Below, one piece after another: positions 6,418 to 41,167 of a stretch of DNA of 64,000 bases (positions are counted from its first letter, which is position 1; every line of letters starts with the position of its first letter). The stretch comes from an uncultured Candidatus Saccharibacteria bacterium (GTDB taxonomy: Bacteria; Patescibacteriota; Minisyncoccia; Phycocordibacterales; UBA9973). The stretch spans positions 54,856 through 118,855 of the forward strand of contig CAZIZK010000001.1 of NCBI GenBank assembly GCA_964544225.1, in the 5' to 3' direction. The notes beneath the pieces are model-generated. The model did no database searches and was not told where the DNA came from. It was given only the letters and a program-made list of their open reading frames with translations. Position numbers and translations under genes: made by a program.

Positions 6418-6921
6418 ATGACTATACTAATTATTTTTGTAATCTTAATGGCGGTTGTTTTTATTGTTTTAAAGAAATTTTTCCCAGATATATTTAATGG
6501 CGAGGAGAAAGTAATTAAGTCTCCATATAATTACAAAAAGAAAGACTTTTTAATGAGTCGTGCTGAACATGAGTTTTTTGATATTCTCATTGAGGTTGTA
6601 GGAAATCAATATTATGTATTTCCACAAATACATCTATCAACTATTTTAGATAATAAGGTTGTGGGACAAAACTGGAGAGGAGCATTCCGTCATATTGATG
6701 AAAAGTCAGTTGATTTCGTTATTTGTGATAAAGCATATATCAAACCAATTCTTGCTATTGAACTTGATGATAAAACACACGAAAGAGAAGACAGAAAAGG
6801 ACGAGATGGAGAAGTAGAACGTATTCTTAAAGAATCAGGTCTGTCTCTTTTAAGGTTTGGTAACAATGGGAGCTTTAATAAAGAAGAAATAAAGCGTTTG
6901 ATCTTAGAGAAATTAAGGTAG
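6418..6921 (+). CDS. Membrane-anchored DUF2726-family protein (PD-(D/E)xK-like nuclease fold)
   Basis: N-terminal TM helix followed by MSRAEHEFFDIL...YYVFPQIHL...VDFVICDK...ILAIELDDKTH...RD..VERIL.ESGL.LLRF, which matches the DUF2726 core. Confidence 0.6.
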   Translation: MTILIIFVILMAVVFIVLKKFFPDIFNGEEKVIKSPYNYKKKDFLMSRAEHEFFDILIEVVGNQYYVFPQIHLSTILDNKVVGQNWRGAFRHIDEKSVDFVICDKAYIKPILAIELDDKTHEREDRKGRDGEVERILKESGLSLLRFGNNGSFNKEEIKRLILEKLR

Positions 6922-7160
6922 GTTTTATATAGAAAAGTTACAGTTGAATGTAACCTTTAACCTCAATCCCGTGTCACTTTTGTCACTTTTCTAATTCGCA
7001 CGAGATACGTCGATTTGATATAATAAAATTATTGGAAATAACGTTACAGGGCTTGTCAGTGAAAAGTCCTAACACGAGTGTCCCCGCATTGACAACCTGT
7101 TAGTTTTGATGACCCATTTAGTTATGTACTAAGTGCGACCCACAAAGCTTCATGTTGCAG

Positions 7161-16802: not shown

Positions 16803-17078
16803 CTACTGCATGTTGTAGATTTTTAACAATTCTTTGATTGAACCTTCCTTGTCGGTCTTTAACCTTTCAGCAAGGCAAGACTCTAAGTGACCCTTTAGTA
16901 ATTCTTTTCGTGCGCTATGCAAAAGACCTACGACACTATCGATCTGCTGAATAATTTCAGGGCAGTATCGTCCATCGTCGACCATCTCAGGAATCTTAGC
17001 TACACTTCCTATTGCCATATTAATAACTTTGCGAGCCTTTGTGTTTGGCTCACCGTGCTTGTGTGTTTGTTTTACCAT
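16803..17078 (-). CDS. csoR: CsoR/RcnR-family copper-sensing repressor
   Basis: 91 aa DUF156 with YCPEII...H...C ligand pattern; heads the cop operon. Confidence 0.75.
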   Translation of the reverse strand: MVKQTHKHGEPNTKARKVINMAIGSVAKIPEMVDDGRYCPEIIQQIDSVVGLLHSARKELLKGHLESCLAERLKTDKEGSIKELLKIYNMQ

Positions 17079-17101
17079 ATACCCTATAGTATAGGGTATA
17101 T
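17077..17101. promoter_or_regulatory. Perfect 25-bp palindrome ATATACCCTATA-G-TATAGGGTATAT overlapping the csoR start; candidate CsoR operator
   Basis: Exact dyad symmetry; the TACCC/GGGTA half-sites resemble known CsoR operators. Confidence 0.6.
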
Positions 17102-17120
17102 GGTTTTGAGAGTCAACTTA

Positions 17121-18449
17121 TTATTTTACCAATGTAATCTTCTTATCATTCAGCACCAACCTACTCCTCAAATGTCCCATCAGTTCACGCTTCTCTAGTG
17201 GTGTGCCTTCCCTCAGCACATACTTGGCATACTCTCTTGTATTCACGTCATCTTCGTTGATGTTGTATTTTGGCGTTCCCTTGGTTGCCAGTCGTTGCAG
17301 TCTATTAAATCGCTTGATTTCTTCTTCAAGCTTGATTCGCATACCTAGTTCGTTGATGCTTACTTTATCTATGACTTTGAATAGCTCCTCAATCAGTTCT
17401 TCCTCTCGTATATATTTATTCTTGCAATTCCTGTCTCTTGCCTTTGAACAGGAGTAGTAGACATACTTGGCGGTCGTTCCATCTTTGAGTTCCTTGTACT
17501 TCTCCTGTGCCGTTATACCTGACTCACACATTCCGCAGGTAAATAGTTTAGTAAATGCGAACTCTCTGTTTTCTCTCACAATCCTATCTCGCTTTAAATG
17601 TGATTGGGCTTTTTCAAATAATTCTTTGGTGATGATTGGTGTATGACTTCCTTGATACCAGTTGTCACTATTTCTCGGATATTCAAATGGTCCATAATAG
17701 ATTGGCATTTCAAATATTCGATACACTCCTGATAGTGTAAGGGGCTTATTTCCTCGAGTGTAGAAATTCAGATCGAATCGCAACCAGTTATATACCTTTC
17801 TTCCGCTCCATCCATCGTATGCAACTTTCTCAAACATTTGTTTGATTACATGAGCCCGATCTGGGTCAATAATTATCTGACACTTCCTATCCATTAACTT
17901 TTGATTCAAATATCCAAGCGGTGCCATTCCAGGCCATAGCCCCATCTCTACTCTCGTTCGCAATCCTCGCTTTACATTGATGCCTCTGTTGTCGTTCTCA
18001 AGTTTCGCTTGGCTTCCCAATATCATCAGGAGAAACTTCTCGTTTGGATTGTTTCCGAATGTCTGCCCGAAGGTTCGTATCATGTGCAATTTTCCTGCAT
18101 CCATCAGGTCTACGATTTTTCCCAAGTCTCCTGCATTTCTTGAGATACGATCTGGTGCCCAAGTAAGTATCGCATTGAATTTCTCTTGCTTGAGTTCCTC
18201 AATGATTTCGTTGAAGACTGGTCGCTGTCCTGTTTCCTTTGCACTATGACTCTCACGCTTCATGGTTACTACTTCAAGCCCCTCACGATCCGCTAATTGG
18301 AGCATCTCGCTAATCTGGCTATCAATACTCAATACCTGCCGTTCCTCAGACTCTGTTGATTTTCTTGCGTATAAGCAATATCTGATCTTCTTTGGTTCGA
18401 CTACTACTTTTGCTACACCTTGCTCCATATTTGGGTTTTCTATCTTCAT
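17121..18449 (-). CDS. Large serine recombinase (resolvase/invertase N-terminal domain plus recombinase and zinc-ribbon domains)
   Basis: N-terminal YARKSTESEE...SIDSQ (catalytic Ser region), C-terminal Cys cluster CGMCESG...YSCSKARDRNC. Confidence 0.85.
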   Translation of the reverse strand: MKIENPNMEQGVAKVVVEPKKIRYCLYARKSTESEERQVLSIDSQISEMLQLADREGLEVVTMKRESHSAKETGQRPVFNEIIEELKQEKFNAILTWAPDRISRNAGDLGKIVDLMDAGKLHMIRTFGQTFGNNPNEKFLLMILGSQAKLENDNRGINVKRGLRTRVEMGLWPGMAPLGYLNQKLMDRKCQIIIDPDRAHVIKQMFEKVAYDGWSGRKVYNWLRFDLNFYTRGNKPLTLSGVYRIFEMPIYYGPFEYPRNSDNWYQGSHTPIITKELFEKAQSHLKRDRIVRENREFAFTKLFTCGMCESGITAQEKYKELKDGTTAKYVYYSCSKARDRNCKNKYIREEELIEELFKVIDKVSINELGMRIKLEEEIKRFNRLQRLATKGTPKYNINEDDVNTREYAKYVLREGTPLEKRELMGHLRSRLVLNDKKITLVK

Positions 18450-18592
18450 ATCTACATTGATGACGCAAATCGTCCAAGGAGCCTAGAGCGTCCCATTGCC
18501 ATAGTGTTGGTAACTAAAACGCCTTTATTTAAGGGTCATTTTTTGGTAAAATGTATTTACTGGCGTAAGAAACTTATGCCTAATATTAAAGT

Positions 18593-21112
18593 ATGAAAAT
18601 TTTTATTCGCAATAATTTATATCGCTCAAAAAAATTTTGGCTCATAAAAAAATGGTTTGAAGAAAAACCAATTTTTAGCTTTTGGGCAAAGATCTTTAAA
18701 CTCGACTTTAATATAAATAAGGGTAAATATTCGGCACGCTTATTGTGGCCTTCAATTTTTCCATTCATTCGGACACTTATCTATTCTATTTTTATAATCG
18801 CAATTTTTGAAACGTACAGTTACTTTTTTCCAGTGGATCAAAAAATATTTAGTGATCAGGTTACTGATACACTACTTTCGGCGATTGCCAGTGTATCCGG
18901 TGTATTCCTTGGTCTTTATTTTACGGCTGTTTCCAGTATCGCAAGTAATTTTTTATTACGTGCCACTCAAAATATAAGGCGCTACTTCCTTTCGACTCCA
19001 ATTGGAGAACAATACGTTAGGACCGTAGCCCTTACGGGTATCATAAGTATTTTTTATCTGTTGGCAAAATCGTTTGGACACCCAATACACCCAGTTGGCT
19101 TAGTATTTCTTTGTATTGCTGGAGCATATATCATAATCAGATTTTGGAGTGTTGGATCAAATGTTTTCTATTCATTGGAACCAACTGTTGCCCTGCCTTC
19201 AATCGGTAAAAACATTGCAGACCTATTGAAGGGGGTTACGCCACCGGGTTTTAAATGGGATAAACCAGCAATACAAAATCATCAAAGACGCCTAGTGTCA
19301 GACAATTTGGAGCTTGCTAAAGACCTTATTGATTTTGGAATTAAAGAGATAAAGCTTTCAAATGAACAATTACATATTGCTCTTCGTTATTTAGGTGGTT
19401 TGCTTTTTTTATATCCTCAATACAAGAAGAAGATACCGACTAATAGCTTTTGGTTCAAAACAAAAAATCAGTACGATAGTTGGACCTTAGCGGATTCAAC
19501 ACAAATCGCGCTTGCCTTAAACACTGGCACAAGTTTGCAACCCAAGACAATCAAAGATTTTACTTGGTTTGAAGAAGAAACTTTGGATATGAGTGTAAAG
19601 ATTTTTGAGTTTTACGCCAAAGAGAAAAATGTTGCCTCTGTATTCCAAGGACTAGAACTTTTTGTAGAAATCGCTGAAGTTTATGCGAGTGAGTTTGATG
19701 AGGAAGGACTAAAGCTTCTTTTACAGAAAACAGAAAAGGTTGCAGGATTGGTCGACCTAGAAAAAGTAGCAGATCCAAAAAATGTTCGGTACAAAGAACA
19801 AATGGCTTTTATTGATACTCAAGGCCGGTTAGCTATAGGGGCGGTGCTTGGATTGGCTAGGTATCTTGATACTGCTTCTGCGGAAAGCTTATCCACGACT
19901 ATTTCAAATATTAAGTGGTATTCAAATAAAAACATTTATCTTACAGGGCTACCTTTGTCGGTTCTATCGCGTCTGGAATCTACTGCAAGTGATTTAAAAG
20001 CTGAAATGCTAATTGAGGGTAGGCAGCTTTCCCCTGAGTGGTATATACGCACTCTTTGCGTTCAGAAATACTTATTCGCACTCTTAGGTTATTTCAAATA
20101 TCTAAAAACCCTTCATTCAACTTACTTTGAACCAAAGCTTGGAAAATTGCTTGCCGAGGATCAATTAGGTCTTGCTGTTCAATTGGTGCAACGCTGGATC
20201 GAGTTTACTCACAAATATAATCGGCTCGTTGGATTGATTGCAAAACATATTGAAGATTGTGTACCTTATCACCAAGTCAAAGATCTTTCTTGGATAGAGT
20301 TTAGTGCAGACGAAGAGTATAAAACCGCAAGGGACCGCGAAAAAGAAGTAGCCGATAAAATGATTAGATTGTTGCCTCGATTAATGACAATGCCTACCGA
20401 AAGCGATATGCCAGACTACTTTGGGCAAGCTCTTACGCAAGGCGTTCAGGCCTGTTATGAGGCGTGTGAGGAGAACGACCCAGTCAGGTTGAAAGCAATA
20501 TTCCCGGTTGTTTTTATAGCTTCACTTTCGGCTTTTGATATGACGAGAGTGAGAGTTCAAAACTGGTCCGAAGAACAAAGCAAAATAATCTATTCAACAG
20601 AACCTCTTATAAATCTCTACGAACTAAGTGGATTTGCTAAATTGTATTCAGAGCTCTACCAAAACACGGAGCTTTGGAATGTTGTGCAAACACCGTGGGA
20701 CACTTATTTGGGTGGTATCGATGCCGTACAAGAAATTACACGCATCGCGGCCATTACTAACTATCGACGTGGACTTTTCATGATCATGCCACAAGCAACC
20801 TTACGAACAAACTGGCAAATGCGATTTAGTAATAAAATGAGAGAACAAGGTTTAGCTGTTTTCCCCGATAGTAGAAGCTATGACTATGTAAATGGCCGAG
20901 AAGATCCTGCGCATGCGAGCGCGATTATTCGTGTAGTTACTCGATCAGGTGGTTTGAGTTTATCTACAGGTCAGACCGTATTTTTCGTAACATATTTATC
21001 CCAACACCCAGGGGCAACAGGAATTGATCTACCAGACCAACGCGACATGAGAGAACAAATACAACGAGAAGAAGAAAGATCTAATGAGGAAGAAAATAAT
21101 GACTATGAATAA
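18593..21112 (+). CDS. Large hypothetical protein (839 aa), N-terminal multi-TM anchor plus large soluble region, acidic C-terminal tail
   Basis: Long intact ORF with four predicted N-terminal helices and no recognisable catalytic motif. Visibly GC-richer than its neighbours. Confidence 0.5.
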   Translation: MKIFIRNNLYRSKKFWLIKKWFEEKPIFSFWAKIFKLDFNINKGKYSARLLWPSIFPFIRTLIYSIFIIAIFETYSYFFPVDQKIFSDQVTDTLLSAIASVSGVFLGLYFTAVSSIASNFLLRATQNIRRYFLSTPIGEQYVRTVALTGIISIFYLLAKSFGHPIHPVGLVFLCIAGAYIIIRFWSVGSNVFYSLEPTVALPSIGKNIADLLKGVTPPGFKWDKPAIQNHQRRLVSDNLELAKDLIDFGIKEIKLSNEQLHIALRYLGGLLFLYPQYKKKIPTNSFWFKTKNQYDSWTLADSTQIALALNTGTSLQPKTIKDFTWFEEETLDMSVKIFEFYAKEKNVASVFQGLELFVEIAEVYASEFDEEGLKLLLQKTEKVAGLVDLEKVADPKNVRYKEQMAFIDTQGRLAIGAVLGLARYLDTASAESLSTTISNIKWYSNKNIYLTGLPLSVLSRLESTASDLKAEMLIEGRQLSPEWYIRTLCVQKYLFALLGYFKYLKTLHSTYFEPKLGKLLAEDQLGLAVQLVQRWIEFTHKYNRLVGLIAKHIEDCVPYHQVKDLSWIEFSADEEYKTARDREKEVADKMIRLLPRLMTMPTESDMPDYFGQALTQGVQACYEACEENDPVRLKAIFPVVFIASLSAFDMTRVRVQNWSEEQSKIIYSTEPLINLYELSGFAKLYSELYQNTELWNVVQTPWDTYLGGIDAVQEITRIAAITNYRRGLFMIMPQATLRTNWQMRFSNKMREQGLAVFPDSRSYDYVNGREDPAHASAIIRVVTRSGGLSLSTGQTVFFVTYLSQHPGATGIDLPDQRDMREQIQREEERSNEEENNDYE

Positions 21113-22151
21113 ATACTTTAAAAAAATTAAAGAGGTGGTGTTGGCCTACTTAAAAGATCCTCTTTTATTGCGAAAGTGGGATCAACCAGATTATTACCGA
21201 TATAGAGGACGTGGTGATAATAATAATCAGTTGTCATTCAGGAGTTCACGAAACAGACGTCACAGGTACCATTATCACGGTACGTCTTCAATGTTCATTG
21301 AAGATATGTTTAGCGGAATAATGCCGTTTATGATTTATAGCGGCGTTAGAGAAAAGTATCCTGCAAAAATTGAACCAGCCGCACCCGATAAAGAAGCAAT
21401 AATTGCTCAAGGTCTTTCTGGTCGCAGGCATCGAACAGCATTAGGTGAAGGTCTTTGTGATTTTGTGCGTGATACAGCACATGTGCTTTTTCAAGACGGC
21501 TTAGCAATATACGAAATTATTTATAAAAAGAACGAAACTGGAGAAACCGAAAGCTATAGCTTTGAATTAATGGATCATTATGGTCTATATAGATTTTTTG
21601 GTAATTACTATCAATTTGTTTCTTGGGCTGATGCAAAGGCTTCACATACCAAAGTTCAAATAATCAAAATACCAAAAGAAAAAGTATTACGCATCGAGTT
21701 CCCAAAAGAACTCGGCGGGCAAAAACGTATCAATAAAATATTAAAGCGATCATGGGAACTCGGACAAGAGATTATTCCTAAGTTTCAAATGGACGCAATG
21801 GAAAAACAAGAAAACATTGGCTTTGATTCAAAGATATATACGGAAGCAAAGTATTTAGAAATTGCGACTCTTACAAAAGACTTGGGATGGAACCAGCGCC
21901 AGTTATCAACCAACCATATTACGGAATATTATGCCCTTCTACGTCTTCTTAGGCAGAAAAAAGTAGAAGCTACTGTTCGAGAAAAGATTTTTACCAAACT
22001 TAATGAAGTCTTAAATGGATCAGTTTTAAACTTTGACGCTCAAGTTTCAATGGATAATCTTTTTACAGCTTCTGATATTGATGCACGTGTCAAAAAACTT
22101 ACAGAAGGTAACACAACTTTTATTGATTTGTTTACTGATACAAGTTTTTAA
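21084..22151 (+). CDS. Hypothetical protein (355 aa) overlapping the preceding gene by 29 nt; Arg/His-rich low-complexity N-terminal region
   Basis: The overlapping start implies translational coupling with the 839-aa gene. Confidence 0.45.
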   Translation: MRKKIMTMNKYFKKIKEVVLAYLKDPLLLRKWDQPDYYRYRGRGDNNNQLSFRSSRNRRHRYHYHGTSSMFIEDMFSGIMPFMIYSGVREKYPAKIEPAAPDKEAIIAQGLSGRRHRTALGEGLCDFVRDTAHVLFQDGLAIYEIIYKKNETGETESYSFELMDHYGLYRFFGNYYQFVSWADAKASHTKVQIIKIPKEKVLRIEFPKELGGQKRINKILKRSWELGQEIIPKFQMDAMEKQENIGFDSKIYTEAKYLEIATLTKDLGWNQRQLSTNHITEYYALLRLLRQKKVEATVREKIFTKLNEVLNGSVLNFDAQVSMDNLFTASDIDARVKKLTEGNTTFIDLFTDTSF

Positions 22152-22244
22152 GATTTGAAATTTAGCTGTTGGTAACTCTACTACACAATGAACTCAATCT
22201 AAGCTAAAGTACAAAAATGCCCCTGAAAATGGTATAATTCGTTC

Positions 22245-22447
22245 ACAATTTAATAACAGACCTAACCCCTCAATTTATTGAGGATATGGTCGCAAAATCC
22301 GTCCAAAGTAAAGAACTCCTAGTCAGAGTCTACTTTGGACGGTCATATCTGGAAACGGGTATGGGTATACCTCACGGGGTATATCGGATCTGGCTAGGAG
22401 CTTTTTGCTACCTATACGGTCCTTCATAACAAAACCGTCCAAAGTTT
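22245..22447 (+). other. Structured 5' leader or candidate ncRNA with an extended -10 (tggtataat), a perfect 12-bp inverted repeat and a direct repeat of ccgtccaaagt
   Basis: ccgtccaaagta-N20-tactttggacgg; a second ccgtccaaagt lies 10 nt before the ATG of the 22448 gene; cctcaa-ttta-ttgagg hairpin. Confidence 0.3.
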
Positions 22448-23365
22448 ATGAAAAATCTTTTAGAAAAGTTTAAACAATTATCTCTTTTTAAGCAGATAAT
22501 TATTGTTCTTGTTGTTCTTACTATTGTTATAGTTAATTTTGATTTATTTAAAAACCTCGTTTACATAGGTCTTGTTGTTGGTGCAATTTATCTTTTATTT
22601 ACTAAAGTATTCAGATCACCAAAAAGAAAAGGACTGGATCTATATTCTCAAAAAATCAAAGAACTTTTAATTGATGGCAATTTGTCAGAGGAAGACAAAA
22701 TAATCCTAGAACAGATTAAAAAAGAGAATAATCTAAACGATAAAGATGTCGAGAAATACAACTTGGCAGGATTCAAAACTTTCTTCGATAAAATTACAGA
22801 TGATTCACGAATTTCAGAAGAAGAAAGAAAAGAACTTGTTAAGATATATTCTGATCTAAATCTGCCAACAGATAAACTCGCATACAGTCAAAGTGATTTT
22901 AATAAATACCATACGCTTCATTTGATAGATCAAGGGACACTTCCAACTATTGATGTACCCAATCTAAATGTTAATTTAAAGGCAGACGAAAAACTGCATT
23001 ATGTAAATAAGGCATTTATTGTTAAAAATAAATCTATAACTACAGGTATTAATTATAGTGGTCTTTCTGGTTCTATTAAGATTGCAAAAGGAATACGCTA
23101 TAGAATCGGAAGTATGAAAATTGCTCCACAGAAAGTAAATGTAATGATGACTGATGATGCAGGTACTTTCTATTTAACAACAGAGAATCTTGGTTATATT
23201 GGTCTTAACAAGCACTTCAGTATGTCATACGACAAAATATCTTCTCTAGATGTTAGAGAAGGATTTTTGTACCTATACAAGAAAGGAAAAGAAGGACCAT
23301 TTATTATTTCAATGGATGATTTTGAACTACCGCTTGCGATTGTTTCTTTCAAGATAAATGAGTAA
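22448..23365 (+). CDS. Hypothetical membrane-anchored protein (two N-terminal TM helices)
   Basis: 305 aa ORF, no recognisable motifs. Confidence 0.4.
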   Translation: MKNLLEKFKQLSLFKQIIIVLVVLTIVIVNFDLFKNLVYIGLVVGAIYLLFTKVFRSPKRKGLDLYSQKIKELLIDGNLSEEDKIILEQIKKENNLNDKDVEKYNLAGFKTFFDKITDDSRISEEERKELVKIYSDLNLPTDKLAYSQSDFNKYHTLHLIDQGTLPTIDVPNLNVNLKADEKLHYVNKAFIVKNKSITTGINYSGLSGSIKIAKGIRYRIGSMKIAPQKVNVMMTDDAGTFYLTTENLGYIGLNKHFSMSYDKISSLDVREGFLYLYKKGKEGPFIISMDDFELPLAIVSFKINE

Positions 23366-23373
23366 GTTTTGTT

Positions 23374-24870
23374 CTATCTTTCCATCTCTTTAAACTTCTC
23401 AGAATATTTTTTAGTAATGTCGTCGACATCTTCGCTAACACCAAGATCAAACATAAAACACCCCTCTGTAATTTCAAGAGTATATAGAAAAGATTCCTCT
23501 ATATAAAAGCACTCCATTGCTGTATCTAGAAGCATACTTAAGCTGTTATTAAGTAGTAATACTTCATCTTGATATGAATCAATGAAACTTTTATAGTGTT
23601 CAGTCATATCAATATCAAATATAGACGAGACTTTTTGAGCCAATTCTTTGAACTCACATAGTGTTCGGTAATTCTTGATTGGCATTGCATGCTTTTTTAC
23701 GAAAAGGAACATGTTTGAAATCGGCATAAGTAATTCGACTTGCTGTTTGTATTCTTTAACAAAGTCAATATTTTCTTTGCAGTTATATAAACTAATGCCA
23801 GTTATAATCTGAACTTGTCTCTGCATCCCCAAGAAATCCTTTTCAATTGTTTGTTCCGTAAGCGAGTCAGTATCAAATAATTTTTGAAAATACTGTTTTG
23901 ATTTTTGCAGTTCAGTATACCAAGCTATAAATAATTCTTTGTGATTATTTTTTGTGTTTCCATTCCATGTATCAAATCTTTCACTCATAAAAATCGTTGA
24001 ATATTCTTTTGTAAACAAACCGTCATCTAGCCATAGAAATATCTTTTCTTTAATAAGAGATTCTATGCTTGTATTTTTACTCTTTGCATATAATTCAATT
24101 GCAGATAATAGTCTTTCTTCAAATTTCTCATCTTTGTCCATGTACGCAATATGAAGATCATCAGCTAGTTTGATGAAAATCTCTTTAATAGGAAGTTCAG
24201 CAAAGAAAACATGGAGTAAGAAGCCATCTTTTTCTGCTGTACTGCGTTTTATCTTCTTTGCTCCCTCATAATACATACGCGAATAAATACGATCTATGAT
24301 TAGGTCTTTGTCTTGTTTAGTGAGAGTATCTCCATTTTTAAATCTTTCATAAAGAAAAACCTGCTCACTAAGGTAGTTATGATCACTGGCTGATCCTTCA
24401 TCTAAAAGAAGCAAATCACTTTGAATGTCTTTTGGAAGATTATTGAAGGTAAATATATGCAGTACTTTTGCGTATTCTAGATAGGTTTGTGCCGTAACGA
24501 ACTTTATACTTTCTTCATGGGAAATGTCTTTTAAAAATTCAGTCTCAACTTTTTCTTTAAATTTTCTCGCGTGAGAGAGGAGGCTATCAACAACTCTCTG
24601 ATTTCGCAAGAGAGATACTTCGGATCTATACAAAAACATTTGAGCATCCATTTTCATGGCATCTTCAAGCTGAACAATATTTATGTATTTGTTGTATTCA
24701 ATTGCTTCTAATCTACTCGGCATCCATCCTTTAGTTAGAATATATAAATCAGATTCCGAAAGGTGTCCCTTACCAGTCTTTTCTCTGTGAATATCATTAT
24801 GAACAAGTGCTTTCACTCGTTCAAATGGAGTTATGTTTGATCTTCTTAAAATATTGGTGAGACTTTTCAT
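23374..24870 (-). CDS. Hypothetical protein (498 aa)
   Basis: Long AT-rich ORF with no recognisable motifs. Confidence 0.4.
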   Translation of the reverse strand: MKSLTNILRRSNITPFERVKALVHNDIHREKTGKGHLSESDLYILTKGWMPSRLEAIEYNKYINIVQLEDAMKMDAQMFLYRSEVSLLRNQRVVDSLLSHARKFKEKVETEFLKDISHEESIKFVTAQTYLEYAKVLHIFTFNNLPKDIQSDLLLLDEGSASDHNYLSEQVFLYERFKNGDTLTKQDKDLIIDRIYSRMYYEGAKKIKRSTAEKDGFLLHVFFAELPIKEIFIKLADDLHIAYMDKDEKFEERLLSAIELYAKSKNTSIESLIKEKIFLWLDDGLFTKEYSTIFMSERFDTWNGNTKNNHKELFIAWYTELQKSKQYFQKLFDTDSLTEQTIEKDFLGMQRQVQIITGISLYNCKENIDFVKEYKQQVELLMPISNMFLFVKKHAMPIKNYRTLCEFKELAQKVSSIFDIDMTEHYKSFIDSYQDEVLLLNNSLSMLLDTAMECFYIEESFLYTLEITEGCFMFDLGVSEDVDDITKKYSEKFKEMER

Positions 24871-24871
24871 A

Positions 24872-25069
24872 TCATTTGTTTTTTCTTAGTGCATTTTCCA
24901 AGAACTCGACCCGTTCTTTAAGTTCTGTGTTGACTATATTTTTTGAAAGCGTAGAAGTAAGCTTAGCAATCATAGATGCCTGCTTGAGTGACATTTCCTT
25001 ATTCATCACTTTACGGATGGTGTCCGAAAGAATGTTATTTATCTCTTCTAGATTAATTGGTTTAGTCAT
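24872..25069 (-). CDS. Small hypothetical protein (65 aa)
   Basis: One nucleotide from the neighbouring gene. Confidence 0.3.
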   Translation of the reverse strand: MTKPINLEEINNILSDTIRKVMNKEMSLKQASMIAKLTSTLSKNIVNTELKERVEFLENALRKNK

Positions 25070-25070
25070 A

Positions 25071-25445
25071 CTAGTTATTTTCTACGATTTCAAACCAAGC
25101 TCTCACTTCATGAGCCTTGCCACTTTTAATAATGTTTTTGTAGAGTGCAAAGATAACATTTGGGGTTAACTTTCTTGCCCAAGAATTTATATCCTGAACT
25201 AATCCGTCTTTCTCAAGTCTTTTGTTCCAATCGGTAAGCGTTCCGACATCGATGTTATATTTTTTTGAGAATTCTAGTTGTGTTTTAATTGCGAGTAATT
25301 CAAACACAGTTTCTTCTTCAATGCCAAATTTCTCGAGTGCTACTCTTGGTTGCCCCTTAAGAAACGAAGGAAGGGACTTCCAAAGAGCGTAAGTCTCGTA
25401 GACTTGCTTTTTATATGGATCTTTAGAAAAATCTTCTTCCTGCAT
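25071..25445 (-). CDS. Small HTH-containing protein, possibly terminase-small-subunit-like or a regulator
   Basis: 124 aa; an HTH-like segment directly upstream of the two MTase genes, mirroring the TerS/MTase arrangement at 1.1-2.8 kb. Confidence 0.3.
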   Translation of the reverse strand: MQEEDFSKDPYKKQVYETYALWKSLPSFLKGQPRVALEKFGIEEETVFELLAIKTQLEFSKKYNIDVGTLTDWNKRLEKDGLVQDINSWARKLTPNVIFALYKNIIKSGKAHEVRAWFEIVENN

Positions 25446-25452
25446 ATATCAC

Positions 25453-26202
25453 TTAAAGCTTTATAGCAGTCTCGCCAGTGAGCTTCTCAAGCCTTGTGAG
25501 GGATGTTTGTACATATGCCTCATCAAGCTCTATTCCGATACACTTTCGACCCAAGTGCTGACATGCGACCCCTGTTGATCCACTTCCAAGAAATGGGTCA
25601 TATACAACATCACCAACTCTTGTTGAGTTAGGAATTATCTTTCTCAATAGTCCAATTGGTTTTTGTGTGGGGTGGAGTTTAGATTTATGAGGTCTAGGAT
25701 GAAAGATAACATTTCTCGCTTTAGACTGTTCCATTTTGTGTTTGCCAAACCATCCGTATGCAATCAGTTCATACATCGACAAATAATCCTTTCTGCTCAT
25801 GACTGGCTGATTCTTCAGCCAAATAATCATTTGGCTGTAATAAAAACCAGCAGACTTCATTCCCAAGCGTAAACTTGGAAACATTAAGTCGGCATTGAAA
25901 ATATATACCGCATTGTATTCTTCAAGATACGGAATAGTCGCACCTAAATATTTGCGAGTGAAATTTTCGTATTCCTCTTCTGATTGCAGGTGGTCATTAG
26001 CGATAATTTTTTCATTATTAACACCGAGTTTTGATAGTCCTATTTTATTTTCTACATAAGCAACGCCGTAGGGAGGATCGGTCACCACTGCTCGTATTTT
26101 ATTGTTACCTATAACCTTTGCGACAAATTCTTTATCCAGAGAATCGCCACATCCGATAATGTGATTTCCGACTCTAAAAATATCTCCTTTATTTATTTTC
26201 AT
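25453..26202 (-). CDS. DNA N6-adenine/N4-cytosine methyltransferase (beta class, stand-alone)
   Basis: Motif IV TDPPYG and motif I YDPFLGSGST. Confidence 0.8.
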   Translation of the reverse strand: MKINKGDIFRVGNHIIGCGDSLDKEFVAKVIGNNKIRAVVTDPPYGVAYVENKIGLSKLGVNNEKIIANDHLQSEEEYENFTRKYLGATIPYLEEYNAVYIFNADLMFPSLRLGMKSAGFYYSQMIIWLKNQPVMSRKDYLSMYELIAYGWFGKHKMEQSKARNVIFHPRPHKSKLHPTQKPIGLLRKIIPNSTRVGDVVYDPFLGSGSTGVACQHLGRKCIGIELDEAYVQTSLTRLEKLTGETAIKL

Positions 26203-27457
26203 AGATTTTATTCGCCTTAAGATTGGTAAATTTTTCCCAACGATCTATGATAATCGTCGCGAAGAGTAAATCTTTTTCGACCCCACGCCATACACGATTT
26301 AATTCTTCACATGCAATCAAATCAGATCCGCTTCCAGCGAAGCCAGAAAAGATGATATGCCCAGGTGCAGAGCATCGTTTGAAAGGCTTTTCATTTAAAG
26401 AAATCGGTTTCTGCGTCGGATGTAAATAGCTTTGAGTGTTATCTCTTTTAACAAGCCAAAGGTCTATCATGTCCTGCAATTCATCCAGAACCTGATTACC
26501 AGTTGTTACTTCTTGATTAAGAATTTCATTTGCATTCCTGAAGTTTGGATTTAAGTATGGCTTACCAAGCGTGCCGTAAGTACATGGCTCATAGAGTCTA
26601 TTCCAAGCAATTTTCGGAGTGCAGTTCTGGTTCGATTTTATCCAAAGGCATACTCTTCTTTTCTTGATTTGGTATTTATCGTATAGAGATTGAGTTAATC
26701 CTATACTATTTGGGTCTGACCAGTAAAAGAAGTGTGAGTCTGGTTTTGCAAATTTTTTAGCTGTCTCCATGCTCTTACTAATAAATTCAGAGTATTCCTC
26801 TTCGCTTTTATTATCTTTGTATTCTCCGCCGTATTTTCCTCCGTATTCCCAAGAAATATTATAGGGCGGATCACAGAAGACAATATCCGCTAGATCATCT
26901 TTCATGAGTTCTTTAACCTGATCTTCGTTAGTGGAATCTCCGACTAAGAGACGATGCTTCCCGAGTTCCCAAACTTCTCCTAATTTCACTTTTGGTGCCA
27001 CTGTTTCTTTAATGGCTTTTCCAACATCAAAATCATCTTCAACAAGATCCACGTCATCAAATAGATTCTGTAATTCTTCATCTCCAAAACCAACATCAAG
27101 AAGCATGTCCATATCGAACTCTTTCAAGAGTTCTTCATCCCATGAACCAGTATTCTTATTAAGTCTCAAGTTGAGTTCTTTTTCTTCTTCGAGTGTTAAT
27201 TCCCGTGAAGGAATCATGCACTCAATTTCTTCAATACCAAGATCCGCATACACTTTTATGCGTTGTTCACCTCCAATAATTATATTGGCTCGTGAGCCTA
27301 TATTTAGAACTATTGGCACGACTGTACCAAATTCTTTAACAGACTTTTCCAAGTCTCTTCGCTCACTCTCGCTTAACTTTCGCGGATTGTATCCGTTTTT
27401 GATCAGATCACTAAGTTTGCGAGAACTATGTGACCATGTGGGCTTTTGTTTTGCCAT
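26189..27457 (-). CDS. ParB-like nuclease domain fused to DNA methyltransferase (paralog of 1546..2829)
   Basis: N-terminal ParB-like IIGGEQRIKV, motif IV CDPPYN, motif I FSGFAGSGS; same architecture as the first fusion. Confidence 0.8.
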   Translation of the reverse strand: MAKQKPTWSHSSRKLSDLIKNGYNPRKLSESERRDLEKSVKEFGTVVPIVLNIGSRANIIIGGEQRIKVYADLGIEEIECMIPSRELTLEEEKELNLRLNKNTGSWDEELLKEFDMDMLLDVGFGDEELQNLFDDVDLVEDDFDVGKAIKETVAPKVKLGEVWELGKHRLLVGDSTNEDQVKELMKDDLADIVFCDPPYNISWEYGGKYGGEYKDNKSEEEYSEFISKSMETAKKFAKPDSHFFYWSDPNSIGLTQSLYDKYQIKKRRVCLWIKSNQNCTPKIAWNRLYEPCTYGTLGKPYLNPNFRNANEILNQEVTTGNQVLDELQDMIDLWLVKRDNTQSYLHPTQKPISLNEKPFKRCSAPGHIIFSGFAGSGSDLIACEELNRVWRGVEKDLLFATIIIDRWEKFTNLKANKIYENK

Positions 27458-27632
27458 AGTGTTAATTCAGAAGAGGGTCTTAATAATGCTCTTCTACCCT
27501 TATTCGTCATTGAATGACAAAATGACAATTTCTTTTTATTATCTAAAATGAATTACTGAAAAATCCTTAATACAAAAGACCTTTTGCTCTTTGGAACAAA
27601 AGGTCTTTATTTCGTCATTTAAAACCAGATGA

Positions 27633-28328
27633 CTATATTTCTCCTTTAAGTAAAAAGAGAGCTTGATAACCGTTCTTCTTGGTGTAGTGAGGAATTGGAT
27701 TTGAATTCATGCCAAAGAATTTCTTCAATCCTTCATTTAGTTCGTACTTTACATTTCTACCAAACTTTTTATTCCAGTTAGACTTCGTTAGTGCTCCGCC
27801 ATGTTCAGCCATCACTTGTAGTAGTGTCCATTTAAGATCATGTTTATTTGTTTTAGTATTCATAAAACCCATATCTTTATAATCAAACTTTTGTGACTTC
27901 ATTCCTGGGTAAGAAACCTTTACAAGGTGCCCATCCAAAAACTTAATACTTAGACTTTCCCAAGTTGCTTTCTTTGGTAGGATGTATGATGCAACCACAA
28001 CAGTCTTTTCTTTTTTATTTGATCCAGACCCAATATCTTCGGTGTTAACAATCCGAACATTCTGAACCCTTCTTTCGGGAATAATATAATTTTCTTGAAC
28101 TAGTTTGTTTATCTCAGCGATTCTTTCTAGCTGTGGAGCTATATTCCCGTATACAGATTTAACTGTTTCAAGTTGTTTCAGAAGTGGCTTTTCTATCTTT
28201 TCTTTCATATCAGCTAGCGATTTTAGAGCTTCTTTAGCCCCAACAGGAATACTCCCTTCAGGGAAGGTTACAGAGCTTTTCTCGTCTTTCATTTGTTTTG
28301 CCACTAATTCGCCAACTGTCATTTTCAT
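27633..28328 (-). CDS. Hypothetical protein (231 aa)
   Basis: ORF only. Confidence 0.4.
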   Translation of the reverse strand: MKMTVGELVAKQMKDEKSSVTFPEGSIPVGAKEALKSLADMKEKIEKPLLKQLETVKSVYGNIAPQLERIAEINKLVQENYIIPERRVQNVRIVNTEDIGSGSNKKEKTVVVASYILPKKATWESLSIKFLDGHLVKVSYPGMKSQKFDYKDMGFMNTKTNKHDLKWTLLQVMAEHGGALTKSNWNKKFGRNVKYELNEGLKKFFGMNSNPIPHYTKKNGYQALFLLKGEI

Positions 28329-28409
28329 ACCCTAATTATATCAAAAATTGGCATTTGTTGGCATTTGCCTATCCCTGTTTACTCTCGGATTTTAAACCCC
28401 AAATGAGTC

Positions 28410-28856
28410 TTACTTTTGAGTAGGCCAAGAAACAATTTGTCCGTAGTAGTAATCTGCGATTTGTTCCATATCCTCATTAAATGCTTTTTCGTTGTCTACT
28501 ACTTCTCCTAATCCAAAAAATAGAGAGTCTGGTTCGTGATTGATAAAGAAGTCGCCTTGAACACTGTCACAACTTGGACAAACATTTGCCCAGTAAGTTT
28601 CATCGCTCATTGCAGTATGTCTTTGTTTAAGAGTTGCAGGAATTGGTGCTGGTGGCTCGCTAATTTCGCCCGCTAGTAGCGAATCAGTCCATTTAAAGAT
28701 AATGATCTCCTTACCGCATTTCCAGCAGTTATAAGGGGCGTATCTATACTGATACCTTTGGGGAAGCGTAGTATTGGTCTCAGAAGCTATCTTGGCAATT
28801 AACTTCTTAAATTCAGTAGTTTTGTCCATTTCTTTATTATAAAAAATACAAACCAT
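28410..28856 (-). CDS. Zinc-ribbon-containing hypothetical protein
   Basis: Two Cys pairs, CWKCGKE and CPSCDS. Confidence 0.4.
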   Translation of the reverse strand: MVCIFYNKEMDKTTEFKKLIAKIASETNTTLPQRYQYRYAPYNCWKCGKEIIIFKWTDSLLAGEISEPPAPIPATLKQRHTAMSDETYWANVCPSCDSVQGDFFINHEPDSLFFGLGEVVDNEKAFNEDMEQIADYYYGQIVSWPTQK

Positions 28857-28899
28857 TAAAACAATTAGCGACCCACAAAGCTAAACTTCTACACCCAGA

Positions 28900-29130
28900 A
28901 CGTGCTAGAATATCCTTACAAGGGTTGAGCCTACGGGTACCATACCCGAGTACACCGCCAAAAAAAATAAAAACCTGAAAGGGTTTTATTTTTTGCGGGC
29001 GAGAAAGAGAACTGCTTCTCTTTCTTGTGAGATTCGAAAGACTTTTCCTTACGAGCATAGCGAGGTGGAAAAGTACCAGCCGTAGTATCGGCGAATCTCA
29101 CCGCCTCCGCAAAATTCATATTTTATTAAA
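28900..29130. other. GC-rich, highly structured non-coding region (candidate ncRNA, strand undetermined)
   Basis: Nested helices: gtgagattcg/cgaatctcac (10 bp, about 47 nt apart), agaaagagaa-ctgc-ttctctttct (10 bp hairpin), acttttcc/ggaaaagt (8 bp), and outer gcggaggcg/cgcccgc. No protein signal; the ORF-track ORFs here are short and overlapping. Confidence 0.3.
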
Positions 29131-36689: not shown

Positions 36690-36694
36690 TATTG

Positions 36695-36768
36695 TCCGCC
36701 TTCATGGATTCGAACCATGGACCCCAGAGGTATAAGCTCTGTGCTCTAACCAACTGAGCTAAAGGCGG
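36695..36768 (-). tRNA. tRNA with anticodon UAU (reads AUA; tRNA-Ile2-type), 74 nt, no encoded CCA
   Basis: Minus strand CCGCCTT-TA-GCTC-AGTTGGTTA-GAGC-A-CAGAG-CTTATAC-CTCTG-GGGTC-CATGG-TTCGAAT-CCATG-AAGGCGG-A. Canonical U8, A14, G18G19, U33, A37 and the T-loop TTCGAAT are present; the 1:72 pair is C:G. Confidence 0.7.
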
Positions 36769-40761: not shown

Positions 40762-40771
40762 TAAATACATG

Positions 40772-41161
40772 GGGGTGACGGGCTTCGATGGGGGCTGTTA
40801 TCTTTTATGTGCGTGTAAAGTACTCAGGAATCTTTTAAAACTTCTTGGAAAAGACTAAGTGCAAACAAAGTCGCTTCAGTAAAGTCACCTTACGCTTTTG
40901 CGTTTAGTGGCTCTGCTCTCTCATTCGCTTAATTTAAGCCAATGGAGTGTCTATGCTATCTACATCCGATAAATAGTATGGGCATAATTAATCGGGTTAC
41001 GAAACAATTACCGCTTGAATTTGTTTCCGACAATTAAAAGCTCGGTGATATAGTGTTTTGTCTGTTCTCTAGCTATATCATTTAAAACCAATGAACATAC
41101 TACACACGTAGACTCATATAAGAGCGTCCTTCACATGGCGGTTCAACTCCGCCCACTTCCA
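40772..41161 (+). ncRNA. ssrA: tmRNA (ssrA), about 390 nt
   Basis: 5' GGGGGUGACGGGCUUCGAUGGGGG (tRNA-like 5' half), 3' GGCGG-UUCAACU-CCGCC T-arm and CACUUCC-A acceptor strand giving a G3:U70 wobble. An internal tag reading frame GCA AAC AAA ... GCT CTC TCA TTC GCT TAA encodes a tag ending ALSFA. Confidence 0.85.
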
Positions 41162-41167
41162 CAATTT

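What the first reader, a model, noticed from the sequence alone, without database searches (positions are those of the whole stretch)
25071..27457. Second methyltransferase island: stand-alone beta-class MTase plus a second ParB-MTase fusion; three amino-MTases in 28 kb with no recognisable restriction enzyme
25453..26202 and 26189..27457 both carry DPPY and FxGSGS motifs. The second is a clear paralog of 1546..2829 (same ParB-like N-terminus plus MTase), but the protein sequences have diverged, so this is not a recent duplication. A small HTH protein precedes them, mirroring the terS/MTase arrangement at 1.1-2.8 kb. Orphan MTases with ParB-like domains are typical of phages and plasmids protecting their DNA. 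Two such modules 23 kb apart suggest two independent mobile-element remnants, or one element whose ends were separated by later insertions.
Basis: partly seen in the sequence, partly recalled or inferred. Interest (0 to 1): 0.5.

Follow-up and report, generated by a model that had tools for sequence, protein, structure and literature searches.

The report
Orphan methylases inside mobile recombinase islands
The two DNA methyltransferase genes are real and have no restriction partner. They form the conserved core of an 11.8-kb mobile island, driven by a serine recombinase, that is widespread in Patescibacteria and carries swappable defence cargo; a terminase-bearing cousin of the same island family sits at the window's left edge.

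Summary
ORF 26189..27457(-) is a ParB-like/beta-class amino-methyltransferase fusion, 25453..26202(-) is a stand-alone beta-class methyltransferase, and 1546..2829(-) is a 41%-identical paralogue of the fusion. No restriction enzyme was found.

The two genes head a tightly packed five-gene operon: ParB-MTase, MTase, a 124-aa HTH protein, a 65-aa protein and a 498-aa all-helical protein with no matching fold. This operon is strictly syntenic in every Patescibacteria locus with enough sequence. A large serine recombinase follows it on the same strand, after 0.2-8 kb of variable cargo (Type I and Type III R-M, DGR, unknown genes).

In the window the island spans about 17121..28958. It has a precise, invariant 24-nt left end and ends right after the recombinase stop. 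Near-identical copies lie in different flanks and in genomes whose neighbouring host proteins are only about 57% identical, so it is mobile.

The left-edge module is a second island of the same superfamily, with terS and terL in place of the 124/65/498-aa genes. In relatives the recombinase follows terL directly, with no capsid genes.

A LOOT RNA (Rfam RF03000) sits in the cargo slot as a recurrent leader of unrelated genes.

The methylases are ordinary. The island family appears undescribed.

The parts
28868..28958 (-). Conserved non-coding terminal block of island A. It starts with the invariant 24-mer GCGGTGTACTCGGGTATGGTACCC (28935..28958) and ends with GCTTTGTGGGTCGC (28868..28881).
   Evidence: The 24-mer is unique in the window. 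Fifteen loci share the block, and the sequence before it is unrelated in each. The 24-mer has 41 exact matches in metagenomes. The block is 80-92% identical across loci.
28410..28856 (-). 148-aa CxxC...CxxC protein. It is an accessory gene inserted between the terminal block and the operon promoter region.
   Evidence: Present only in the nearest relatives L003, L009 and L043. No Pfam, PHROG, PADLOC or PDB match.
27633..28328 (-). 231-aa protein of unknown function, the first gene of the conserved strand. In other islands an unrelated protein of about 370 aa takes its place.
   Evidence: 40-100% identical homologues in about 15 genome loci. No similarity to the 346-393-aa alternative. No family or PDB hit.
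26189..27457 (-). ParB-like N-terminal domain fused to a beta-class N6/N4 DNA methyltransferase (ParB-MTase #2).
   Evidence: 64-98% identical in all type-A loci.
25453..26202 (-). Stand-alone beta-class DNA methyltransferase (249 aa). It overlaps the upstream gene by 14 nt.
   Evidence: Pfam N6_N4_Mtase E 3e-33. Best solved relatives are CcrM, H. pylori DpnA-like and M.MboIIA, all adenine MTases. 74-98% identical in relatives.
25071..25445 (-). 124-aa helical HTH DNA-binding protein, a distant (transitive) relative of PF13022/terS-like proteins.
24872..25069 (-). 65-aa conserved small protein, function unknown. Proposing it as an excision directionality factor or regulator is inference only.
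   Evidence: 54-100% identical and always between the 124-aa and 498-aa genes. No family hit.
23374..24870 (-). 498-aa all-helical protein of a Patescibacteria-restricted family. It is the fast-evolving last gene of the operon.
22448..23365 (+). Cargo: 305-aa membrane protein. Its start lies 62 nt downstream of the LOOT RNA.
   Evidence: Weak PADLOC PDC-S48 hit, 3.3e-8. 39-45% identical homologues in L012, L020, L024, L036, L076 and L080.
22259..22385 (+). LOOT RNA (Rfam RF03000), antisense to the MTase operon, in the cargo slot.
   Evidence: 83.7 bits against a gathering score of 46.4. 17 further copies in related islands. An ORF starts 11-73 nt downstream in the 14 copies examined.
18593..22151 (+). 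Cargo: overlapping 839-aa and 355-aa proteins of unknown function.
   Evidence: No Pfam, PHROG or PADLOC hit. 98% and 96% identical in Nomurabacteria MAGs L012 and L036 and in metagenome locus L062.
17121..18449 (-). Large serine recombinase (442 aa). Island A ends right after its stop codon.
   Evidence: Resolvase + Recombinase + Zn_ribbon_recom. PHROG integrase 2.2e-63. 57-95% identical in relatives, on the same strand as the operon. Flanks diverge immediately after the stop.
1..1150 (-). Island B: N-terminal 383 aa of a terminase large subunit. The ORF runs off the left end of the window.
   Evidence: Walker A AFRGSGKST and LIICDD. phrog_38 terL 4.9e-64. More than 3600 homologue clusters.
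1143..1559 (-). Island B: terS-like HTH protein (138 aa).
   Evidence: PHROG terS families down to 3.1e-9. Pfam HTH_Tnp_1_2 8.5e-6. 83% identical in L082.
1546..2829 (-). Island B: ParB-MTase #1 (427 aa) with DPVY, HATSKP and FLGSGS motifs.
   Evidence: 78% identical in L082.
2985..7148 (.). Rest of island B. Contents: a 148-aa ORF (-), an S24 repressor 3474..4112, DUF2188, a TIR-like 123-aa ORF, a caspase 4763..5731, a 217-aa ORF and DUF2726 6418..6921 (all +). A second copy of GCTTTGTGGGTCGC lies at 7135..7148(-), next to the host terminator.
   Evidence: Same gene order in L082-L084. The 14-mer occurs only twice in the window.

Best explanation
Shown: the two methyltransferase genes are the first two conserved genes of a five-gene operon: ParB-MTase, MTase, a 124-aa HTH protein, a 65-aa protein and a 498-aa helical protein. 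Together with a large serine recombinase at the far end, this operon forms the backbone of an 11.8-kb integrative island (window about 17121..28958). The island family is mobile among Patescibacteria. Between the 498-aa gene and the recombinase it has a cargo slot that holds different genes in different copies.

Inferred: the backbone derives from the packaging-proximal region of temperate phages, where ParB-MTase, a second MTase, terS and terL occur in that order. The two enzymes are orphan adenine-type amino-methyltransferases. They probably methylate the island's DNA, and unavoidably the host chromosome, so that the DNA survives restriction when it reaches a new cell. That matters here because sister islands carry Type I and Type III R-M systems as cargo.

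The ParB-like domain probably acts as a nucleotide-dependent DNA-loading module for the enzyme. The recombinase integrates and excises the island.

The transfer route is not shown. The most likely route is hitch-hiking in virions of a helper phage (satellite-like), because the sister island type keeps terS and terL but has no capsid genes. The left-edge module is such a sister island.
For: Operon: gaps of -14, 7, 1 and 1 nt.

Synteny: all 24 genome loci with enough upstream sequence carry the complete five-gene cassette. The recombinase is on the same strand, 0.18-8 kb downstream (gene maps).

Precise ends: invariant 24-mer with unrelated flanks. Divergence starts immediately after the recombinase stop.

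Mobility:
- A 99.4%-identical copy sits in a different flank (L003).
- 93.6% DNA identity over 5.2 kb, and 95-98% protein identity, with Nomurabacteria MAGs whose adjacent CopA is only 56-57% identical.

Cargo diversity: Type I R-M + AAA_15, DGR, ResIII + MTase, and unknown genes.

Phage origin: 374 phage records carry the fusion, with the order ParB-MTase, MTase, terS, terL. Loci L040 and L065 have the same 24-mer end followed by ParB-MTase, MTase, terS and terL.

Sister type B: ParB-MTase, terS, terL, then the recombinase directly, with no portal or capsid. It is syntenic with window 1..7150. L085 (type B) carries the same kinds of cargo genes (bAvd, RT, ResIII/YagJ, N6_N4 MTase) as L004 (type A).

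No restriction partner: the 498-aa protein has no nuclease, ATPase, terminase or portal fold. Other neighbours have no hits.

Adenine-type chemistry: DPPY motifs, and nearest solved relatives CcrM, DpnA-like and MboIIA.

Literature: ParB-fold + N6N4 MTase fusions are enriched in prophages and proposed to act in anti-defence (PMC12704722).
Against: - No methylation data, so activity and target motifs are unknown.
- ParB-MTase #1 has DPVY instead of DPPY and may be impaired.
- No empty site and no excised circle were found.
- The island family is absent from 2.9 million IMG/VR viral contigs when searched with the 498-aa profile. That gives no support for packaging in virions.
- No replication module was recognised.
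- The 124-aa protein is only a transitive relative of terS (hhalign probability 0.3).
- Three of the five operon products have no assigned function, so the operon may do something other than self-protection.
Confidence: 0.6

Rival explanations
1. The operon is a restriction-modification-like or other methylation-dependent defence system. The MTases mark self DNA, and the 498-aa protein (or the 231-aa or 65-aa product) is an unrecognised effector.
For: The 498-aa gene is always linked to the two MTases. It evolves much faster than its neighbours, as arms-race proteins do (37-64% against 85-98%). The islands otherwise carry defence cargo.
Against: The confident model (pLDDT 89) is almost all helical. 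It has no nuclease, ATPase or other enzymatic fold match and no Pfam or PADLOC hit. Variants with the same end and recombinase keep ParB-MTase + MTase but lack the 498-aa gene (L069). The 231-aa gene is replaceable by an unrelated gene.
Confidence: 0.12
2. One reading: these are decaying remnants of two prophages or plasmids, and the MTases are leftovers with no current role.
For: No virion genes are present in either module. The phage-like gene order is retained.
Against: All backbone ORFs are intact. They are under strong conservation in dozens of genomes: the 124-aa protein is 63-99% identical in 231 clusters, and the terL relatives listed are 79-98% identical among more than 3600 clusters. 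The compact architecture recurs with precise ends. Near-identical copies occur in distant hosts and different flanks.
Confidence: 0.08
3. The island is a non-viral integrative element spread by natural transformation or another capsid-independent route. The MTases act mainly on the resident chromosome, for example as epigenetic regulation, or as protection of the host against the R-M cargo of incoming sister islands.
For: No capsid or conjugation genes are present. No relative was found in IMG/VR. Type A lacks a terminase. Sister islands carry R-M systems.
Against: Type B islands keep both terminase subunits under strong conservation, which is hard to explain without packaging. In phages the MTase sits with the packaging genes.
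Confidence: 0.2

Closest known systems
Phage ParB-like/N6_N4 DNA methyltransferase fusions (PHROG 498; for example Streptococcus Javan and phi1207.3 phages and Lachnospiraceae NatCom phages)
   Same: Same two-domain architecture. About 30% identity over 93-99% of the length. Same neighbourhood logic: a second MTase follows and terS/terL lie downstream. Known to be enriched in prophages (PMC12704722).
   Different: Here the fusion sits in a 7-12-kb island without virion genes. In type A the terminase genes are replaced by three unrelated conserved genes. The host phylum is Patescibacteria.
Beta-class adenine MTases CcrM, M.MboIIA and H. pylori DpnA-like (PDB 6pbd, 1g60, 5hek)
   Same: Motif order IV before I, DPPY and FxGxG motifs. 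These are the best solved sequence relatives of the 249-aa enzyme (E 1e-22 to 1e-11).
   Different: The target-recognition region is not alignable and the specificity is unknown. N4-cytosine enzymes also match, more weakly (8s9m, E 5e-9), so the modified base is inferred and not shown.
Plasmid leading-region orphan MTases M.EcoGIX and M.BceJIII (PMC7736820)
   Same: Orphan MTases on mobile elements, proposed to protect incoming DNA from restriction during establishment.
   Different: Those enzymes are specific for single-stranded DNA and sit on conjugative plasmids. The sequence relationship to the present enzymes was not tested.
Phage satellites (SaPI/PICI with their own terS; Vibrio PLE, which integrates with a large serine recombinase) and the defence hot spots of P4-like satellites (own knowledge, not tested here)
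   Same: Small integrative elements with an integrase, a repressor (S24 type in island B), packaging-related genes, no complete virion module, and a variable slot filled with defence genes.
   Different: No helper phage, induction or packaging is known. No replication module was recognised. Type B carries both terS and terL but no capsid genes, a combination I do not know from the described satellite families. Type A has neither.
SCC-type genomic islands mobilised by large serine recombinases (own knowledge)
   Same: Recombinase at one end, variable cargo, site-directed insertion next to a conserved host locus. Here that locus is repeatedly the csoR/copper operon.
   Different: The backbone genes are unrelated.
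LOOT RNA, Rfam RF03000
   Same: Full-length matches at 62-86 bits against a gathering score of 46.4.
   Different: Rfam lists it as an sRNA gene. Here it is consistently placed 11-73 nt upstream of unrelated ORFs inside or beside serine-recombinase islands of Patescibacteria. That looks like a cis-acting leader or a cassette-associated element.

Membership tests
Beta-class N6/N4 amino-DNA methyltransferase (Pfam PF01555) | Significant match to the family profile above the curated cut-off | tested here: met
   116.1, 69.5 and 99.6 bits against a cut-off of 26.7 for 25453..26202, 26189..27457 and 1546..2829.
Beta-class N6/N4 amino-DNA methyltransferase (Pfam PF01555) | Catalytic motif IV (D/S/N)PP(Y/F) lying N-terminal to SAM-binding motif I FxGxG | tested here: met
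   DPPY at 42-45 before FLGSGS at 204-209, and DPPY at 196-199 before FAGSGS at 373-378. Paralogue #1 has DPVY at 194-197, a departure from the consensus.
Beta-class N6/N4 amino-DNA methyltransferase (Pfam PF01555) | Methyl transfer to DNA, with a defined target sequence and base | not testable with these tools
   Needs methylome or enzyme assays.
ParB/Srx N-terminal (ParB-CTPase fold) domain | Match to PF02195 or equivalent profiles | tested here: inconclusive
   #2 scores 25.6 bits against a cut-off of 26.3 (E 1.3e-5). #1 has no Pfam hit at E 0.01. Both match PHROG ParB-like families strongly (3.9e-26 and 8e-24). Relatives have precomputed ParB_N hits.
ParB/Srx N-terminal (ParB-CTPase fold) domain | Arginine-rich box II (GERRxR) for nucleotide binding | tested here: inconclusive
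   Only GGEQR (#2, aa 62-66) and AGHQR (#1) are present, with one arginine retained. Nucleotide binding was not tested.
Restriction-modification system | A cognate restriction endonuclease encoded next to the MTase | tested here: not met
   The 498-aa product has no nuclease fold. The 231-, 148-, 148-, 124- and 65-aa products have no nuclease family or PDB match. The fold was not modelled for the 231-aa and 148-aa ORFs. The only nuclease-superfamily domain is DUF2726 at 6418..6921, six genes from MTase #1 on the other strand.
Prophage | Virion structural and lysis genes | tested here: not met
   No PHROG structural hit in island A. In relatives of island B the recombinase follows terL directly. 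The 498-aa family is absent from IMG/VR.
Island mobilised by a large serine recombinase | Recombinase with Resolvase + Recombinase + zinc-ribbon domains at one end of the element | tested here: met
   17121..18449. Same position and strand in 14 genome loci and in several metagenome loci.
Island mobilised by a large serine recombinase | Defined ends with unrelated flanks in different genomes | tested here: met
Island mobilised by a large serine recombinase | attB empty site or attP circular junction | tested here: inconclusive
   No empty site in JGI metagenomes for the window's flanks. No junction was seen among the 41 loci holding the 24-mer.
Phage satellite (PICI/SaPI/PLE-like) | Integrase plus packaging-redirecting genes, without a full virion module | tested here: inconclusive
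   Met for island B (terS + terL + predicted recombinase). For island A the terS relationship of the 124-aa protein is only transitive.
Phage satellite (PICI/SaPI/PLE-like) | Helper-dependent induction and packaging | not testable with these tools
   Needs virome, VLP or culture data.
LOOT RNA (RF03000) | Covariance-model score above Rfam's gathering threshold over the full model | tested here: met
   83.7 bits against 46.4, model positions 1-121.

The most novel reading that the evidence does not exclude
The window holds two members of an undescribed superfamily of small (7-12 kb) serine-recombinase islands of Patescibacteria that behave as phage satellites. Type B carries its own terS and terL but no capsid genes. 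Type A has replaced them with a three-gene module of unknown fold. Both pre-methylate their DNA with ParB-tethered orphan methylases. Both share a cargo slot in which unrelated genes are placed behind a common LOOT RNA leader, which would give this orphan RNA family its first biological context.
Probability: 0.3. Interest if true: 0.75.

Novelty: new variant of a known kind. Interest (0 to 1): 0.55.

Why it matters
Taken alone, the methyltransferases are ordinary phage-type orphan enzymes. The context is what matters.

Patescibacteria have tiny genomes, and little is known about how they exchange genes. A compact island family, conserved across many lineages, with exact ends and a serine recombinase would be a concrete vehicle for that exchange. 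Its cargo slot carries R-M systems, diversity-generating retroelements and unknown gene pairs.

The type-B cousins carry terS and terL but no capsid genes. That hints at a satellite strategy I do not know from the described satellite families.

The recurrent LOOT RNA in front of swapped cargo genes gives a testable role to an RNA family that I recall as known only from metagenomes (own recollection, unverified).

The fast-evolving 498-aa protein of unmatched fold and the 839/355-aa cargo pair are candidates for new defence or anti-defence functions.

Tried and rejected
1. Is the 498-aa ORF a terminase, portal or nuclease? Rejected. It has no Pfam, PHROG or PADLOC hit. A PDB profile search found nothing. 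The confident AF2 model matches only generic helical bundles and no viral structure.

2. Direct homology of the 124-aa HTH protein to the window's terS. Not found: BLASTP gave none, hhalign probability was 0.3, and PHROG terS hits were sub-threshold. Only a transitive link exists, through a PF13022 protein in L069.

3. Empty insertion site. A pattern built from the two flanks of island A had 0 matches in the metagenome collection.

4. Circular junction or tandem copies among the 41 loci with the 24-mer. None is clear.

5. tRNA or tmRNA as integration target. No tRNA abuts the left end in 28 loci. Rfam found nothing in the left flank.

6. RNA structure in the 90-nt terminal block. RNAalifold found only an invariant hairpin inside the 24-mer. 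A hairpin I thought covaried is no more stable than shuffled sequence (mean -2.9 against -3.5 kcal/mol), so I dropped it.

7. Promoter scan of the island. It is not above shuffled expectation (26 against 24).

8. Is the 14-mer at 7135..7148 a general type-B end? It is absent from L082, L083 and L085, so it is left unexplained.

9. Exact-sequence look-up of ParB-MTase #1, to read beyond the window's left edge. It is not on record.

10. Literature. No paper in the library describes such islands in Patescibacteria. The main text of the paper I recall as the source of the LOOT motif (Weinberg et al. 2017) does not mention it, and no supplement is held.
Full report
**1. Observation**

- ORF 26189..27457 (422 aa) matches Pfam N6_N4_Mtase (E 5.4e-19). 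It also matches ParB_N just below the curated cut-off (25.6 against 26.3 bits).
- It matches PHROG ParB-like families at 3.9e-26 and the phage MTase family phrog_498 at 2e-86.
- ORF 25453..26202 (249 aa) matches N6_N4_Mtase at 3e-33.
- Both proteins have DPPY N-terminal to F(L/A)GSGS, which is the beta-class order.
- The left-hand paralogue 1546..2829 is 41% identical over 429 aa but has DPVY.
- The stand-alone enzyme is 25-27% identical to either fusion.
- The nearest solved relatives of the 249-aa enzyme are adenine MTases: CcrM, an H. pylori DpnA-like enzyme and M.MboIIA. N4-cytosine enzymes match more weakly.

The 124-aa HTH ORF lies downstream of the MTases, and it is not detectably similar to the terS-like ORF at 1143..1559.

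**2. The architecture is a known phage feature**

tblastn finds the fusion in 374 phage records, at about 30% identity. In 225 of them the match covers at least 80% of the query.

- In Streptococcus phage Javan239 the fusion is followed by a second MTase, small ORFs, terS, terL and portal.
- In Coprococcus phage NatCom_24345 a 422-aa hypothetical ORF follows the fusion, and terS and terL lie about 4.4 kb further downstream.
- A 2025 survey reports that ParB-CTPase-fold + N6N4 MTase fusions are enriched in prophages, and proposes anti-defence roles (PMC12704722).
- Plasmid leading-region orphan MTases are a functional analogue (PMC7736820).

**3. What the island really is**

The 498-aa ORF downstream (23374..24870) has no family hit. 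It does have 118 homologue clusters, all about 495 aa long and named Patescibacteria or Paceibacterota where a name exists.

Gene maps around three of these homologues show the same co-oriented series: ParB-MTase, 249-aa MTase, a 123/124-aa protein, a 64/65-aa protein and a protein of about 495 aa. Variable genes follow, then a large serine recombinase.

A scan of one genome per species returned 29 loci, all of them Patescibacteria MAGs. I mapped the window's proteins onto these loci, with these results:

- The five-gene cassette is complete in all 24 loci that have enough upstream sequence.
- The recombinase is on the same strand, from 0.18 kb (L023, no cargo) to about 8 kb downstream.
- More distant members, found through the 124-aa protein (231 clusters), have the same layout.

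In the window the five genes are separated by -14, 7, 1 and 1 nt, so they form an operon. The recombinase is 17121..18449, with Resolvase, Recombinase and Zn_ribbon_recom domains and a PHROG integrase match of 2.2e-63.

**4. Ends and mobility**

DNA comparison shows that similarity to other loci starts sharply near 28958-28966 and stops at 17118-17134.

- Left end: fifteen loci aligned here all begin with GCGGTGTACTCGGGTATGGTACCC, and the sequence before it is unrelated in each. In the window this 24-mer is unique, at 28935..28958. It occurs in 41 metagenome contigs.
- Right end: the sequences diverge immediately after the recombinase stop codon.

Three observations show that the island moves:

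- L003 carries a 99.4%-identical copy in a different flank.
- The nearest relative, L009, is 95.8% identical across the operon, but its neighbouring host DNA is rearranged.
- Nomurabacteria MAGs L012 and L036 share 93.6% DNA identity over 5.2 kb, with the recombinase 95% and the cargo proteins 96-98% identical. Their adjacent CopA is only 56-57% identical.

The element is therefore horizontally mobile. Its size in the window is about 11.84 kb.

In the window, L012, L036 and L024 the right flank is the operator and gene of a CsoR-type repressor heading a copper operon (CsoR Pfam E 4.6e-16). A type-B island in L083 lies upstream of a csoR gene as well, with a LOOT copy and a 218-aa ORF in between. 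This suggests a preferred target.

I found neither an empty site nor a circular junction.

**5. Neighbours tested for a restriction enzyme**

*The 498-aa protein*

- A 52-sequence alignment gave a confident model: pLDDT 89.4, pTM 0.82, almost all helices plus one hairpin.
- BFVD returns nothing (best E 0.02, TM about 0.1).
- A PDB profile search returns nothing.
- HMMER against 1.84 billion representatives finds only 210 relatives. Distant, longer members have no Pfam domain.
- The family is absent from IMG/VR.

It is therefore not a recognisable nuclease, ATPase, terminase or portal.

It also diverges far faster than its neighbours. In L010 the neighbours are 93-97% identical and this protein is 64%. 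In L025 the recombinase is 95% and this protein is 46%. I cannot explain this.

*The 124-aa protein*

- Its only link to terS is transitive. It is 30% identical to a 131-aa protein of L069. That protein passes the PF13022 cut-off and matches terS PHROGs.

*The smaller ORFs*

The 231-aa, 65-aa and both 148-aa ORFs have no family or PDB matches. In other islands the 231-aa gene is replaced by an unrelated gene of about 370 aa.

*Conclusion on restriction*

The caveat is that the small ORFs were not modelled. The only nuclease-superfamily domain nearby is DUF2726 at 6418..6921.

**6. The left-hand module**

An ORF that runs off the window's left end (1..1150, minus strand) is a terminase large subunit. 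It has Walker A and B motifs and matches phrog_38 at 4.9e-64. Module 1 therefore reads ParB-MTase, terS, terL.

The terL fragment has more than 3600 homologue clusters. The top 120 are 79-98% identical and carry Patescibacteria names where any name exists.

Four gene maps around these homologues (L082-L085) show a compact island and not a prophage. Its layout is:

- On one strand, a repressor (S24 type, or M78 + HTH_3) plus accessory genes.
- On the other strand, a protein of about 135 aa, ParB-MTase, terS and terL.
- Then either the serine recombinase directly, or cargo followed by the recombinase.
- No portal or capsid gene.

L082 is syntenic with window 1..7150. The identities are terL 87%, terS 83%, ParB-MTase 78%, the TIR-like protein 75% and the caspase 75%. 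Its recombinase is 58% identical to that of island A.

L085 (type B) carries the same kinds of cargo genes (bAvd, RT, ResIII/YagJ, N6_N4 MTase) as L004 (type A). Loci L040 and L065 combine the type-A 24-mer end with ParB-MTase, MTase, terS and terL.

The window thus contains two islands of one superfamily, in the same orientation. Host genes separate them: a multicopper oxidase, class II RNR, PduO, ArsR and the copper operon. The reading 'one element split by insertions' is rejected. 'Remnants' is also unlikely, given the intact and strongly conserved backbones.

**7. Mechanism**

Shown:
- Orphan beta-class MTases sit in an operon at the conserved end of a mobile serine-recombinase island with a cargo slot.

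Inferred from phage biology (my own knowledge: phage orphan MTases next to packaging genes protect DNA that is about to leave the cell):
- The enzymes methylate island DNA so that it survives restriction in the next host. This is relevant here because sister islands carry Type I and Type III R-M cargo.

Inferred from PMC12704722:
- The ParB-like domain is a nucleotide-dependent DNA-engaging module. Only one box-II arginine is retained.

The transfer route is open. The terS/terL-only type B argues for satellite-like packaging. The absence from IMG/VR and the lack of a replication module argue for caution.

**8. Noticed along the way**

A LOOT RNA (RF03000) lies at 22259..22385, antisense to the operon. 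Seventeen more copies lie in related loci.

In the 14 copies I examined, an ORF starts 11-73 nt downstream, most often about 62-65 nt. The L069 and L083 copies fit the same pattern, at 58 and 18 nt.

The downstream ORFs belong to unrelated families: a bPH_2 membrane protein, T5orf172/MUG113, DUF5655/NucS-like, and various transmembrane proteins. That pattern suits a shared 5' leader or a cassette-associated element better than a free-standing sRNA.

**9. Novelty**

- The MTases are new members of a known kind.
- The island superfamily is a new variant of known kinds (recombinase-mobilised islands, and phage satellites with defence hot spots).
- I found no description of it in the paper library.

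Noticed in passing
window 22259..22385 (+); also L009, L010, L012, L014, L017, L020, L021, L022 (two copies), L024, L025, L026, L029, L036, L056, L069, L083: LOOT RNA (Rfam RF03000, 62-86 bits against a gathering score of 46.4) recurs in or beside these serine-recombinase islands. In the type-A genome loci it lies antisense to the MTase cassette. In the 14 copies examined an ORF of an unrelated family starts 11-73 nt downstream, and L069 and L083 fit the same pattern. It looks like a shared leader of swapped cargo genes.
   Followed up: partly
window 23374..24870 (-): The 498-aa helical protein diverges far faster (37-64% identity) than the flanking backbone genes (up to 98%) in the same loci. 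Its variants do not track the rest of the island. The cause could be diversifying selection or allele swapping; it is unexplained.
   Followed up: partly
window 18593..22151 (+): The cargo pair of overlapping 839-aa and 355-aa ORFs has no Pfam, PHROG or PADLOC match. The same pair is 98% and 96% identical in Nomurabacteria MAGs (L012, L036) and in metagenome locus L062. It is a candidate unknown defence or accessory system.
   Followed up: no
window 3474..6921 (+): Accessory strand of island B: an S24 (LexA/CI-like) repressor, DUF2188, a 123-aa TIR-like protein (faint ThsB_TIR in its L082 homologue), a caspase-like peptidase (Peptidase_C14; phrog_18397 5e-86), a 217-aa unknown and DUF2726 (restriction-endonuclease-like superfamily). 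The TIR-like and caspase genes are conserved together in L082-L084. This is a possible abortive-infection module.
   Followed up: partly
window 7135..7148 (-) and 28868..28881 (-): The 14-mer GCTTTGTGGGTCGC occurs exactly twice in 64 kb. One copy closes the conserved terminal block of island A. The other sits next to the host terminator at the presumed end of island B. It is not found at the ends of type-B relatives L082, L083 and L085, so its meaning is unclear.
   Followed up: partly
window 16803..17110 (-); L012, L024, L036, L083: Islands of both types lie upstream of a CsoR-type repressor gene heading a copper-resistance operon. In the window, L012, L024 and L036 the csoR operator palindrome follows the recombinase stop within about 25 nt. 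In L083 a LOOT copy and a 218-aa ORF intervene. This is a possible preferred integration target.
   Followed up: partly
window 1..1150 (-) and its homologues: The terL of island B has more than 3600 homologue clusters. The top 120 are 79-98% identical across many Patescibacteria lineages. In four contexts examined it lies in an island with a serine recombinase downstream, directly in three and after cargo in one, and with no capsid genes. This is an unusually conserved, widespread terS + terL-only element.
   Followed up: partly
window 28959..29040 (-): The host flank just outside island A's left end is 75-84% similar to the flank in L029 and L015. It contains a terminator-like hairpin and a G+C-rich stretch with no Rfam match. 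This may be the same insertion site, or an unannotated RNA.
   Followed up: no
window 28410..28856 (-): A 148-aa CxxC...CxxC ORF is wedged between the terminal block and the AAATGCCAAC/AAATGCCAAT-type repeat and promoter-like site that directly follow the block in most relatives. It is present only in the nearest relatives.
   Followed up: no
window 36694..36768 (-) and 40771..41162 (+): A tRNA-Ile with the unusual anticodon UAU, and a tmRNA with tag peptide ANKVASVKSPYAFAFSGSALSFA. A tRNA-Ile(UAU) also occurs in L005. Both are host features of this Patescibacteria genome.
   Followed up: no
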